Shown here: positions 1,739 to 2,273 of the stretch, in pieces
Position numbering within the stretch: the stretch's first letter is position 1
Layout: each line of letters opens with the position of its first letter
DNA from: a virus
Taxonomy: Duplodnaviria; Heunggongvirae; Uroviricota; Caudoviricetes
Strand: one strand, 5' to 3'
Length of the DNA stretch: 4,439 bases
Virus record (IMG/VR): IMGVR_UViG_3300029157_000003
Program-made: the position numbers and the translations under genes
The notes under the pieces: model-generated
The model's input: the letters and a program-made list of their open reading frames with translations, nothing else
Told to the model about the DNA's origin: nothing
The model's database searches: none

Positions 1739-1744
1739 TAGCTA

Positions 1745-1765
1745 ACCAACGAAGCTAAGGTTGGT
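1745..1765 (+). terminator. Hairpin just after the small-gene cluster (weak terminator candidate)
   Basis: 6-bp stem ACCAAC/GTTGGT with a 9-nt loop, starting 7 nt after the TAA stop. The downstream tract AATTAAGG is not a clean U-run, hence low confidence. Confidence 0.25.
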
Positions 1766-1777
1766 AATTAAGGAGTT

Positions 1778-1827
1778 CTCCACGGGTGAGGTGGAGTGCG
1801 TGCGCCGGACACGGGTGAGCATCCGGC
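1778..1827 (+). other. Two adjacent hairpins sharing the motif CACGGGTGAG (direct repeat at 1781-1790 and 1810-1819)
   Basis: Hairpin 1: CTCCAC-GGGTGAG-GTGGAG (1778-1796). Hairpin 2: GCCGGA-CACGGGTGAGCA-TCCGGC (1804-1827). An AAGGAG lies at 1770-1775 but no credible ORF follows it. Confidence 0.4.
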
Positions 1828-2017
1828 ACTGACAGTTTACTGAAAGGATATTTCCCTGAAAAGTCAGACCATAACGCGAAAGCGCACGGCGAGGTAGCTG
1901 GTTCATAGATAGCCTGTCGTTAAATTTTCGTCGACCGTGCGCTTCCGGTTGTGGCAATCCGCGAAATGGCGCGGCGGTAAGTATGGCGGGGTTATTCCTT
2001 CCACCGTTGAGGACACC

Positions 2018-2054
2018 GGGTTGTCAGGTTGACCATACGCTTAAGTGACAACCC
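2018..2054. repeat. 9-bp perfect inverted repeat GGGTTGTCA ... TGACAACCC with 19-bp spacer
   Basis: Seen directly: 2018-2026 and 2046-2054 are reverse complements. Lies inside the ORF-free region. Confidence 0.5.
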
Positions 2055-2094
2055 CGCTGCAACGCCCTCTGTTATCAATTTTCTGGTGACGTTT

Positions 2095-2138
2095 GGCGGT
2101 ATCAGTTTTACTCCGTGACTGCTCTGCCGCCCTTTTTA
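2095..2138 (+). terminator. Weak intrinsic-terminator-like element (GC arms GGCGG/CCGCC followed by CTTTTT)
   Basis: GGCGG (2095-2099) and CCGCC (2127-2131) followed by a T-run (2133-2137). The loop is long, so the structure is marginal. Confidence 0.25.
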
Positions 2139-2230
2139 AAGTGAATTTTGTGATGTGGTGAATGCGGCTGAGCGCACGCGGAACAGTTAAAACCAAAAAC
2201 AGTGTTATGGGTGGATTCTCTGTATCCGGC

Positions 2231-2251
2231 GTTAATTGTTAACTGGTTAAC
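2231..2251. repeat. Three closely spaced GTTAA(T/C) repeats (includes two GTTAAC palindromes) just upstream of a GGAGG
   Basis: GTTAAT 2231-2236, GTTAAC 2238-2243, GTTAAC 2246-2251; strong SD-like GGAGG at 2259-2263; sequence is then interrupted by the N run. Possible regulator-binding site / translation initiation region of a gene whose start lies in the gap. Confidence 0.3.
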
Positions 2252-2273
2252 GTCACCTGGAGGCACCAGGCAC

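What the first reader, a model, noticed from the sequence alone, without database searches (positions are those of the whole stretch)
1739..2273. About 530 bp with no credible ORF but dense secondary-structure potential
Between the last small gene and the gap, all plus-strand frames are broken by stops. The only track ORF, on the minus strand at 1742-1957, has no RBS and an odd R/S-rich composition. The region contains several GC stems: the twin hairpins, CCGCG-AAATGG-CGCGG at 1959-1974, a 9-bp inverted repeat at 2018-2054, and a terminator-like element near 2095-2138. In Rac this neighbourhood carries sieB and kilR, so it may be a gene remnant, or it may encode a structured RNA or an antitermination region.
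Basis: partly seen in the sequence, partly recalled or inferred. Interest (0 to 1): 0.5.

Follow-up and report, generated by a model that had tools for sequence, protein, structure and literature searches.

The report
DicF small-RNA gene and its leader
This ORF-free stretch is the already known untranslated segment of a Qin-like prophage operon that is cut up to release the cell-division-blocking small RNA DicF; the only new lead is that the 116 bases in front of DicF form a conserved folded RNA module shared with phage P1 and other phages that lack the N antiterminator.

Summary
The locus is not Rac. It is the dicBF operon of a Qin-like lambdoid prophage: dicC, dicA, dicBp, ydfA, ydfB, ydfC, then this untranslated stretch. 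It is 527/535 identical to E. coli K-12 Qin. The "terminator-like element" is the DicF sRNA (2081-2133; Rfam RF00039, 76.7 bits against a cut-off of 48). The 100-N gap hides about 775 bp in the closest genome, including dicB and ydfD.

Published work accounts for most of the region. A stable duplex (1869-1893/1931-1954) matches the RNase III site that gives the 190-nt precursor, RNase E releases 53-nt DicF, and a second RNase III stem begins at 2144.

Not described in the papers I read, and absent from Rfam: the 116 nt before DicF (1948-2063) are a discrete RNA domain with four helices and a probable pseudoknot, supported by covariation. It occurs in P1-like phage-plasmids, cdtI-type and other phages, usually just ahead of the first intrinsic terminator of an early operon. 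None of 160 loci with the domain has an N gene upstream. About 21 of 24 loci with the domain cleanly excised do. I infer, at roughly 0.35, an N-independent put-like antiterminator. The finding as given is already known.

The parts
1100..1128 (+). dicBp, the operon promoter (TTGACG-17-TAAATT). It lies outside the finding but is the source of the transcript.
   Evidence: 9/12 match. With a start near 1135, the published RNase III cut at +813/+814 maps to about 1947/1948.
1520..1738 (+). ydfC, the last coding gene before the untranslated stretch.
   Evidence: (annotated ydfC in the 100%-identical genome).
1745..1765 (+). Hairpin just after the ydfC stop codon (ACCAAC/GUUGGU).
   Evidence: -7.2 kcal/mol, z = -2.39.
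1778..1827 (+). Twin hairpins (1778-1796 and 1804-1827) carrying the same 10-nt sequence CACGGGUGAG. A separable module of unknown role, possibly a 3'-end stabiliser of the ydfABC mRNA.
   Evidence: (repeat D4). The module also occurs between early-left genes of N-encoding phages PhiR5_2, phiSTEC1589, phi367 and P13374. I saw no covariation, and the energy is not unusual (z = -0.97).
1829..1867 (+). Imperfect hairpin (CUGAC...GUCAG).
   Evidence: -9.5 kcal/mol, z = -1.57.
1869..1954 (+). Long interrupted duplex (arms 1869-1893 and 1931-1954). It is the inferred RNase III substrate, with the cut mapped to about 1947/1948. Its 3' arm includes 1948-1954, which is also the 5' strand of helix P0 of the leader domain.
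   Evidence: I1; z = -3.64, 0/200. The arms are conserved and the apical part varies among relatives. RNase III dependence and the +813/814 cut are published for K-12; I mapped them to this window by inference.
1948..2063 (+). Conserved leader domain, the 5' part of the 190-nt DicF precursor:
- P0 1948-1955/2056-2063.
- P1 1959-1963/1970-1974 (loop AAAUGG).
- P2 1981-1986/2033-2038 (pseudoknot).
- P2a 1987-1991/2001-2006 (variable stem, pyrimidine-rich loop; the window carries an extra A2003 as a bulge).
- P3 2018-2025/2047-2054.
   Evidence: Alignments A1 and A2. Pair counts. About 12 different P2a stem sequences that all pair. Model R1 finds one copy each in P1, cdtI, pPE4 and others at 89-159 bits. 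No Rfam family matches.
2064..2080 (+). Single-stranded A/U-rich linker ending at the DicF 5' end, the RNase E cleavage region.
   Evidence: The sequence itself, plus published RNase E dependence of the 53-nt species.
2081..2137 (+). DicF sRNA (53 nt, 2081-2133) with its intrinsic terminator (stems 2095-2101/2125-2131 and 2103-2107/2117-2121, U run 2133-2137).
   Evidence: Rfam RF00039 at 76.7 bits against a gathering score of 48, E = 2.5e-16. Identical to the K-12 dicF stretch in A1. K-12 and phage Tritos annotate it at the same position. Fold.
2138..2273 (+). DicF-dicB spacer, the 5' untranslated region of dicB. 2144-2161 is the 5' arm of an 18-bp stem whose 3' arm lies in the N gap. This stem is the inferred RNase III site that gives 72-nt DicF and the dicB mRNA 5' end.
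   Evidence: Fold of the intact sequence in L001 3440-3589: z = -5.55, 0/200. A 72-nt RNase III product is published. Weak sub-threshold similarity to STnc100.
2274..2373 (.). Run of 100 N. In the closest complete genome it stands for 775 bp: the end of the spacer, dicB, ydfD and the 5' end of the exonuclease gene.

Best explanation
**Identity (shown).** Window 1739-2273 is the long untranslated ydfC-dicB segment of the dicBF operon of a Qin-like lambdoid prophage. It encodes the Hfq-dependent sRNA DicF and the structured precursor from which DicF is cut.

**How it works (published for the near-identical K-12 locus; mapped here by inference).**
1. When DicA repression is lifted, dicBp (1100-1128) transcribes ydfABC and this stretch.
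2. Many transcripts stop at the DicF terminator (2095-2137).
3. RNase III cuts the 1869-1954 duplex at about 1947/1948, giving the 190-nt species (1948 to about 2137).
4. RNase E cuts at 2080/2081 to free 53-nt DicF, which represses ftsZ and other mRNAs.
5. Read-through transcripts are cut by RNase III in the 18-bp stem that starts at 2144, giving 72-nt DicF and the dicB message.

**The part the literature does not explain (structure shown, function inferred).** The 116 nt between the RNase III cut and the DicF linker (1948-2063) are a self-contained, conserved and probably pseudoknotted RNA domain. It is a mobile module: the same domain precedes different sRNA bodies and terminators in other phages. 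Its most likely role, at about 0.35, is an N-independent cis-acting antiterminator of the HK022 put kind. That would let RNA polymerase from the early promoter pass the DicF-type terminator and reach dicB, the exonuclease and the genes beyond, in phages that have no N protein.

The confidence figure below refers to the identity and processing map, not to the antitermination idea.
For: **Identity**
- DicF model at 76.7 bits.
- 100% match to an E. coli chromosome with ydfA-ydfB-ydfC upstream and dicB-ydfD-exonuclease downstream.
- 527/535 identity to K-12 Qin, where dicF is annotated at the same offset.
- Phage Tritos annotates DicF at the same place.

**Processing**
- The published 190-nt species (RNase III), 53-nt species (RNase E), 72-nt species (RNase III) and the +813/814 cut fit the two very stable duplexes (z = -3.64 and -5.55) and the promoter position.

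**Domain structure**
- Covariation in P3 (6 of 8 pairs), P0 (4 of 8) and P2 (U-A to U-G to C-G at one pair).
- About 12 different P2a stems that all pair.
- G-U pairs place the structure on the + strand.

**Domain as an independent module**
- It is present in P1 about 35 nt after the Pban -10 element, and in cdtI and pPE4 between the repressor gene and the first early-left gene.
- The sRNA body after it varies between types.
- It is cleanly replaced by GGUUGUG-AAUA-ACAAC in N-encoding phages that keep the flanks and an sRNA.
- In the L151/L172 type it occurs without an adjacent sRNA or terminator.

**Link to antitermination**
- 0 of 160 domain-bearing loci with at least 2.5 kb upstream have an N gene of the two N types searched by tblastn (PhiR5_2-type and lambda-type).
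- About 21 of 24 domain-less loci do, and the hits span four identity classes that I read as at least four N alleles.
- In Qin, cdtI and P1 the domain lies ahead of the first + strand intrinsic terminator.
- Complete phages such as Tritos and cdtI must read through that terminator to express recombination and excision genes, and they have no annotated N.
Against: **Identity:** nothing serious. The RefSeq record of the closest genome does not annotate dicF, but K-12 and Tritos do.

**Antitermination role**
- There is no functional test.
- There is no sequence or architectural similarity to HK022 put: the model finds nothing in the HK022 loci, and put has two stems where this domain has four helices.
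- cdtI has a single copy, whereas HK022 has putL and putR.
- In K-12, most transcripts were reported to end at DicF and no full-length species was detected.
- Five N-less loci also lack the domain.
- The N anticorrelation could partly reflect linkage of neighbouring mosaic modules rather than function, and only two N query types were searched.
- In the Qin type the RNase III duplex sequesters the 5' strand of P0, so the full domain may fold only after cleavage.
- The pseudoknot P2 rests on one covarying pair, and its 3' strand was fixed by two of my three search patterns.
Confidence: 0.9

Rival explanations
1. The leader domain is only a biogenesis and stability scaffold. It positions RNase E for the precise cut that makes the DicF 5' end, or it protects the precursor. 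It has no effect on transcription.
For: The domain ends 17 nt before the RNase E-dependent DicF 5' end. The 190-nt precursor that contains it accumulates when RNase E is inactivated. Upstream stem-loops are reported to direct RNase E processing of another 3'-UTR sRNA, MicL (reference title cited). In most types the domain is followed by an sRNA-like hairpin and terminator.
Against: N-encoding phages keep the flanks and an sRNA and terminator with the domain cleanly removed, so sRNA production does not need it. L151/L172-type loci have the domain with no sRNA or terminator next to it. Long invariant unpaired stretches and a pseudoknot conserved from lambdoid phages to P1 are more than a cleavage guide would seem to need.
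Confidence: 0.25
2. The domain is the sensor of a conditional attenuator (riboswitch-like or factor-dependent). It decides whether transcription stops at the adjacent terminator, giving only the sRNA, or continues into dicB and the early-left genes.
For: The layout is promoter, long leader, highly conserved closed domain, variable linker, intrinsic terminator, then genes, seen in cdtI, P1 and Qin. The domain is conserved while the platform after it varies. The P0 5' strand has an alternative partner in the RNase III duplex.
Against: I found no antiterminator pairing that is conserved across the different terminator types; P1's GCCCA/UGGGC stem shares nothing with the GGCGG types. L151/L172-type loci lack the terminator. 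No known riboswitch family matches. The anticorrelation with N fits a constitutive substitute for N better.
Confidence: 0.12
3. The 190-nt RNA, or the domain alone, is a trans-acting regulator in its own right. It could be an antisense or decoy RNA using the pyrimidine-rich P2a loop, in the manner of the P1 c4 immunity RNA.
For: The 190-nt species is stable and accumulates in stationary phase. The P2a loop is usually UCCUU- or CUCC-rich on a freely covarying stem, which looks like a presented recognition loop. The covariance model gives a weak hit (14 bits) on a C4 RNA in L149.
Against: 14 bits is near noise. Rfam's C4 model does not hit the window. No target has been identified. The loop motif is not universal, for example in the L147 and L172 types. 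The hypothesis does not explain exclusivity with N.
Confidence: 0.15
4. The stretch is a decayed protein-coding gene.
For: A 71-aa minus-strand ORF (1742-1957) is called as a hypothetical protein in some phage records. The small + ORF at 1937-2032 matches phrog_8854 at E = 3e-19.
Against: There are no Pfam hits for any ORF. The phrog_8854 frame has an in-frame TAA in the cdtI, L149, L151, L163 and L173 types, and the frame after the variable hairpin differs between types, while base pairing is kept. Relatives carry 1-nt indels inside the minus ORF, and its open stretch ranges from 37 to 72 aa among homologous segments. Conservation is not three-periodic.
Confidence: 0.03

Closest known systems
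DicF sRNA and the dicBF (ydfABC-dicF-dicB-ydfD) operon of E. coli K-12 cryptic prophage Qin
   Same: Same gene order, 98.5% nucleotide identity over 1739-2273, an identical DicF sequence, and the same predicted RNase III and RNase E processing layout.
   Different: The window copy has a 1-nt insertion (A2003) that bulges helix P2a, plus seven substitutions. Its prophage keeps a full-length exonuclease gene where K-12 has the ydfE pseudogene and IS2. dicB and ydfD are hidden by the N gap.
HK022 put RNAs (putL, putR), cis-acting antiterminator RNAs of an N-less lambdoid phage
   Same: Position downstream of an early promoter and ahead of the first terminators. Occurrence only in phages without N. 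A compact structured RNA with invariant unpaired bases.
   Different: No sequence or structural homology. About 116 nt with four helices and a pseudoknot, against about 70 nt with two stems. One copy per genome in cdtI. In the Qin type it lies about 810 nt from the promoter, after three genes. Function is untested.
The 'dicF-like region' annotated in the leader of the phage P1 ban operon
   Same: The same domain. The P1 feature (68791-68892) overlaps the 3' half of the domain found by model R1 at 68721-68850.
   Different: P1 has no DicF by the Rfam model. After the domain it has a different terminator (GCCCATCTTCGGGTGGGC plus a T run). So the 'dicF-like' label there reflects the leader, not the sRNA.
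Lambda nutL (boxA plus boxB) with N protein
   Same: The same place in the early-left operon. A boxA-like GUGCUCUCUU / GUGCGCUUCC motif sits just 5' of the domain, and a 5-bp GC stem with a purine-rich loop (P1) follows it.
   Different: No N gene is present. The motif is not present in P1-type copies. In the Qin type the motif doubles as the 3' arm of the RNase III duplex. I only noted this and did not test it.
STnc100 (Rfam RF02076)
   Same: The DicF-dicB spacer aligns end to end with the model, including the long closing stem.
   Different: 38.7 bits, below the gathering score of 47. According to a 2026 preprint, STnc100 family members lie near Q and lysis genes, which is a different part of the phage.

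Membership tests
DicF RNA (Rfam RF00039) | Covariance-model score at or above the curated gathering score (48 bits), full length. | tested here: met
   76.7 bits, model positions 1-52 of 52, window 2081-2132.
DicF RNA (Rfam RF00039) | Location in a prophage dicBF operon between ydfC and dicB. | tested here: met
   ydfA, ydfB and ydfC lie upstream in the window. dicB and ydfD lie downstream in the 100%-identical genome. The layout matches K-12.
DicF RNA (Rfam RF00039) | 3' end formed by an intrinsic terminator. | tested here: met
   Stem 2095-2131 followed by UUUUU; -15.9 kcal/mol.
DicF RNA (Rfam RF00039) | 5' end made by RNase E, a 190-nt precursor made by RNase III, Hfq-dependent repression of ftsZ. 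| not testable with these tools
   Published for K-12. The window sequence is identical over DicF, so this is inferred.
HK022 put antiterminator RNA | Homologous two-stem RNA of about 70 nt. | tested here: not met
   Model R1 finds nothing in the HK022 loci L016 and L017 at E up to 1. putL read from L017 shares only a 9-mer. The architecture is different.
HK022 put antiterminator RNA | Lies downstream of an early promoter and upstream of terminators, in a phage without N. | tested here: met
HK022 put antiterminator RNA | Two copies, one in each early operon (putL and putR). | tested here: not met
   One copy in the whole cdtI genome.
HK022 put antiterminator RNA | Binds the RNA polymerase beta-prime zinc-binding domain and suppresses termination without protein factors. 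| not testable with these tools
   Needs transcription assays.
Lambda-type nut site | A cognate N protein encoded in the same operon. | tested here: not met
   No N gene between dicA and the domain. 0 of 160 domain-bearing loci give tblastn hits with the two N queries.
STnc100 (Rfam RF02076) | Score at or above the gathering score (47 bits). | tested here: not met
   28.8 bits in the window, where the gap truncates the match. 38.7 bits in the intact locus.
C4 antisense RNA (Rfam RF01695) | Score at or above the gathering score (45 bits). | tested here: not met
   No hit in the window even at E up to 10. There is only a 14-bit cross-hit of my model on a true C4 RNA in L149.
Transcription-terminating riboswitch or attenuator | A conserved sensor domain whose 3' part competes with a terminator through a conserved alternative pairing. 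| tested here: inconclusive
   The domain-plus-terminator layout is present. I found no alternative pairing shared by the different terminator types, and L151/L172-type copies lack the terminator.

The most novel reading that the evidence does not exclude
The 116-nt domain (window 1948-2063) defines a new class of cis-acting processive antiterminator RNA, unrelated in sequence and fold to HK022 put. N-less lambdoid phages (Qin/Tritos-type, cdtI-type) and P1-like phage-plasmids would use it to carry RNA polymerase through the sRNA terminator and into their early operons. DicF-type sRNAs would then be the terminated by-product of this device.
Probability: 0.3. Interest if true: 0.75.

Novelty: already known. 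Interest (0 to 1): 0.35.

Why it matters
As flagged, the finding rediscovers DicF, one of the first bacterial regulatory RNAs described, together with its processed precursor, so it adds nothing new by itself.

The comparative by-product could matter:
- The DicF "leader" is a separate, covarying RNA module. It is present in about 500 P1-like plasmid records.
- The 574-nt query that contains the module (window 1700-2273) matches most complete E. coli genomes.
- No Rfam model covers it.
- It is exactly excised in phages that carry N.

If it is an RNA-only antiterminator, it would be a second example after put. It would also explain how N-less lambdoid phages and the P1 ban operon pass an early terminator, and it would link sRNA production to the control of phage early genes. 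In addition, the P1 "dicF-like" label and PHROG family phrog_8854 appear to describe this RNA rather than an sRNA homologue or a protein.

Tried and rejected
- **Rfam scans** of the window, of 1739-2080 alone at E up to 10, and of ten related loci. Only DicF and a sub-threshold STnc100 match bear on the region.
- **Genome-collection scan** with a DicF core pattern. It gave only 7 loci, all Escherichia/Shigella or gut-metagenome bins, so it added no diversity.
- **Similarity to HK022 put.** I located putL through the published primer. There is no model hit and only a shared 9-mer, so I rejected homology.
- **A C4-like relationship.** The 14-bit cross-hit is too weak.
- **A loop-to-flank pseudoknot** between the P2a loop (UCCUU) and the following GAGGA. 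Complementarity holds in some types (Qin, L047, L169) but not in others (P1, L149, L127) by inspection, so I did not pursue it.
- **Extending P2 with UAA/UUA pairs.** There is no covariation.
- **An antiterminator pairing** between GCGGCGGUA (1971-1979) and the terminator 3' strand. P1's terminator cannot form it.
- **A second, putR-like copy** in cdtI. None was found.
- **Protein readings** of five ORFs: see the gene-remnant rival.
- **A 23-aa ORF** from TTG 1761 across the twin hairpins. It has no Shine-Dalgarno sequence, a relative has a frameshift, and the two repeat copies fall in different frames.
- **Not used:** the metagenome scan.
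Full report
**What the window is**

The window carries, in order:
- a Cro-like gene (300-554, minus strand);
- a helix-turn-helix repressor (ORF 554-1012; the ATG at 605 matches the 408-nt annotated dicA);
- three small genes (1205-1360, 1372-1490, 1520-1738);
- the flagged stretch (1739-2273);
- 100 N (2274-2373);
- a long exonuclease ORF running to the end.

A 574-nt query spanning the finding (window 1700-2273) matches 4721 of 5426 complete E. coli genomes. One chromosome matches at 100%. 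The stretch is 527/535 identical to K-12 Qin, with one extra base at A2003.

In the closest genome the N run stands for 775 bp. That sequence holds the end of the dicF-dicB spacer, dicB, ydfD and the start of the exonuclease gene.

**Checking the observation**

- No ORF of 30 aa or more lies on the + strand inside the stretch, except a 31-aa GTG ORF.
- The twin hairpins are at 1778-1796 and 1804-1827 and share the 10-mer CACGGGTGAG.
- The hairpin at 1959-1974 is present.
- The 9-bp inverted repeat is at 2018-2026/2046-2054.
- A hairpin with a U run is at 2095-2137.

As a whole, 1739-2140 folds better than shuffles (z = -2.64). By energy alone only some parts stand out:
- the 1866-1958 duplex (z = -3.64);
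- the spacer read in the intact locus (z = -5.55);
- the twin hairpins (z = -0.97) and the 1945-2066 segment (z = -0.31) do not stand out.

**What it is**

The "terminator-like element" is the DicF sRNA: Rfam RF00039, 76.7 bits against a gathering score of 48, window 2081-2132. It is identical to K-12 dicF. Phage Tritos annotates it at the same place.

- a 190-nt species whose 5' end is made by RNase III between transcript positions 813 and 814;
- a 53-nt species whose 5' end needs RNase E;
- a 3' end at the intrinsic terminator;
- a 72-nt form made by RNase III from read-through transcripts.

The promoter-like site at 1100-1128 puts +813/+814 at about 1947/1948. A 190-nt RNA starting at 1948 ends in the U run at 2137. 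The cut lies inside the most stable local structure, an interrupted duplex of arms 1869-1893 and 1931-1954. The arms are conserved among relatives while the apical part varies.

Downstream, 2144-2161 forms an 18-bp stem with a partner that the N gap hides. That position fits the 72-nt 3' end.

Mapping the published cuts onto this window is my inference.

**Not a gene remnant**

None of the five small ORFs has a Pfam hit. The minus-strand 71-aa ORF has no PHROG hit either. Relatives at 83-91% identity carry single-base indels inside it.

The small + ORF at 1937-2032 hits phrog_8854. In that frame, the cdtI, L149, L151, L163 and L173 variant types have an in-frame TAA. That stop is created by the very substitution that is compensated in helix P0. 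The frame after the variable hairpin also differs between types. phrog_8854 therefore looks like a family of ORF calls laid over a conserved RNA.

**The part the literature does not cover**

A sensitive nucleotide search showed that the stretch is mosaic.
- Window 1948-2071 alone is conserved at 77-90% in cdtI, Stx2c phages, 2H10, phage pPE4 and P1/P7-like phages.
- The twin hairpins alone occur in other phages.

Pattern scans of viral contigs gave more than 200 loci and about 100 distinct sequences. In these, invariant blocks flank a hairpin of free sequence: GGCGCGGCGGUAAGUAUGGC on one side and CAGGUUGACCAUACGC on the other.

The structure is supported as follows (29 representatives).
- 95.3% of cells are paired. 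Twelve pairs change on both sides, against 4.8 in shuffles (0/500). Sliding the partner strand reduces pairing to 30-56%.
- P3 (2018-2025/2047-2054) covaries at 6 of 8 pairs, for example GGGUAACC/GGUUACCC and GAGCUACC/GGUAGCUC.
- The closing helix P0 (1948-1955/2056-2063) covaries at 4 of 8 pairs.
- P2a (1987-1991/2001-2006) has about a dozen different stem sequences that all pair.
- P2 (1981-1986/2033-2038) crosses P3, which makes a pseudoknot. It shows U-A, U-G and C-G at one pair (88, 4 and 5 of 101 sequences). Two of my three patterns fixed its 3' strand, so this helix is only suggested.
- G-U pairs place the structure on the + strand.

No Rfam family resembles the domain. The P1 genome's "dicF-like region" overlaps the domain's 3' half, although P1 has no DicF by the Rfam model.

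**What the domain's surroundings say**

- **Variable sRNA body.** The segment between the domain and the next terminator differs among types, and DicF is only one version. In nearly all types an intrinsic terminator follows within about 30-95 nt, including a quite different one in P1.
- **Position near early promoters.**
  - In P1 the domain starts about 35 nt after the Pban -10 element.
  - In cdtI it lies about 285 nt after an 11/12-match pL-type promoter and before any gene.
  - In pPE4 it lies between dicA and kil.
  - In the Qin type it follows ydfABC but still precedes the first + strand terminator.
- **Clean natural excision.** In phages PhiR5_2 and phiSTEC1589 the same untranslated region is present, with twin hairpins, RNase III duplex, an sRNA and the spacer. 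The domain is replaced exactly by a four-base loop, GGUUGUG-AAUA-ACAAC, and these phages encode N upstream.
- **Exclusivity with N.**
  - Of 24 such domain-less loci with at least 2.5 kb upstream, about 21 have an N gene. The tblastn hits fall into four identity classes, which I read as at least four N alleles.
  - Of 160 domain-bearing loci with the same flank length, none does.
  - The tblastn search used only two N query types, PhiR5_2-type and lambda-type.
  - Five loci lack both N and the domain. Three of them carry an independent second deletion.
- **Domain without an sRNA.** L151/L172-type loci have the domain with no sRNA or terminator next to it. In L172 it sits in an ORF-poor stretch 1.7 kb upstream of a holin gene.
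- **Need for read-through.** Complete phages such as Tritos and cdtI have no annotated N, yet must read through the terminator to express recombination and excision genes.

**Interpretation**

The identity and processing map are secure (confidence about 0.9).

For the domain, two facts argue against a pure sRNA-processing scaffold:
- sRNAs persist in loci where the domain has been excised;
- the domain occurs in loci with no sRNA next to it.

Exclusivity with N, together with the position ahead of the first terminator of early operons, is what one would expect of an N-independent antiterminator of the HK022 put kind. I put this at about 0.35.

Against it:
- no homology to put;
- a single copy in cdtI;
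- the report that K-12 transcripts mostly end at DicF;
- possible linkage effects in the N correlation;
- in the Qin type, the RNase III duplex competes with P0 for 1948-1954, so the full domain may fold only after cleavage.

The rivals are:

| Rival | Probability |
|---|---|
| Processing scaffold | 0.25 |
| Trans-acting RNA | 0.15 |
| Conditional attenuator | 0.12 |
| Gene remnant | 0.03 |

**The twin hairpins remain unexplained**

The two copies of CACGGGUGAG are 29 nt apart and so fall in different reading frames. They are conserved without covariation in a few phages. In other Qin-type relatives, unrelated hairpins take their place. A role as a 3'-end stabiliser of the ydfABC message after RNase III cleavage fits the reported loss of ydfA transcripts in an rnc mutant, but this is a guess.

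**Verdict**

The finding as flagged is a correct observation of a known object, DicF and its precursor. It rates low on novelty. The conserved leader domain is a worthwhile lead that needs experiments.

Noticed in passing
window 2274-2373: The 100-N run replaces about 775 bp in the closest complete genome: the end of the dicF-dicB spacer, dicB, ydfD and the 5' end of the exonuclease gene. It also removes the 3' arm of an 18-bp stem whose 5' arm is at 2144-2161.
   Followed up: yes
window 2158-2273; L001 3431-3640: The DicF-dicB spacer aligns end to end with Rfam STnc100 (RF02076) at 38.7 bits, below the 47-bit cut-off. A 2026 preprint places that family near phage Q and lysis genes. This may be distant homology between two phage leader regions.
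   Followed up: partly
window 1937-2032 (+): PHROG family phrog_8854 (unknown function) matches this 31-aa ORF at E = 3e-19. The frame is broken by stops and frame changes in other variant types, while RNA pairing is kept. The family is probably made of ORF calls over a conserved RNA.
   Followed up: yes
window 1938-1947; L013 1990-1999: A boxA-like motif lies just 5' of the domain: GUGCGCUUCC in the Qin type, GUGCUCUCAG in cdtI, GUGCUCUCUU in L149, L047 and L173. For comparison, rrn/lambda boxA is (U/C)GCUCUU(U)A, quoted from memory. It is absent from P1-type copies.
   Followed up: no
window 1875-1891 and 1960-1976; L025, L071: There is a direct repeat, CGCGAAAGCGCACGGCG and CGCGAAATGGCGCGGCG. 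In L025 the sequence between the two copies appears to be deleted, which removes the RNase III 3' arm and the 5' strand of P0.
   Followed up: partly
window 2003: The window copy has an extra A relative to K-12 and most relatives (CCACCG instead of CCCCG). This puts a bulge in helix P2a. A few viral contigs share it.
   Followed up: partly
L015 (phage pPE4) about 2100-2260: The sRNA unit after the domain (CCCCGCCACAACAACCCATGTTGATTACCTTTTGGCGG...) appears twice in tandem. The phage is labelled as an Actinobacillus phage, but this region looks like an E. coli lambdoid early region (DicA, YdaT, Kil, exonuclease VIII).
   Followed up: no
L172 about 3965-5825; L151, L231: A divergent type of the domain sits in an ORF-poor stretch of about 1.8 kb with no adjacent terminator. 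An unknown 180-aa ORF and a holin gene lie downstream. The sequence after the domain (GCGGCGUAAGGUGG...) faintly recalls the domain's own 5' block.
   Followed up: partly
L149 2562-2769 (minus strand): The same phage contig carries a P1-type immunity set (C4 antisense RNA, c4-a1b1 targets, isrK) about 5 kb from the domain. My domain model gives a weak 14-bit hit on the C4 RNA.
   Followed up: partly
L163 4506-4632 (minus strand): A 127-nt match to the tRNA model (40 bits) lies about 150 nt upstream of the domain. It is unusually long for a tRNA.
   Followed up: no
L001 (NZ_CM129038.1) 3382-3433: The RefSeq annotation of the 100%-identical chromosome lists no dicF ncRNA, although the Rfam model scores 76.7 bits there. 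K-12 and phage Tritos do annotate it.
   Followed up: yes
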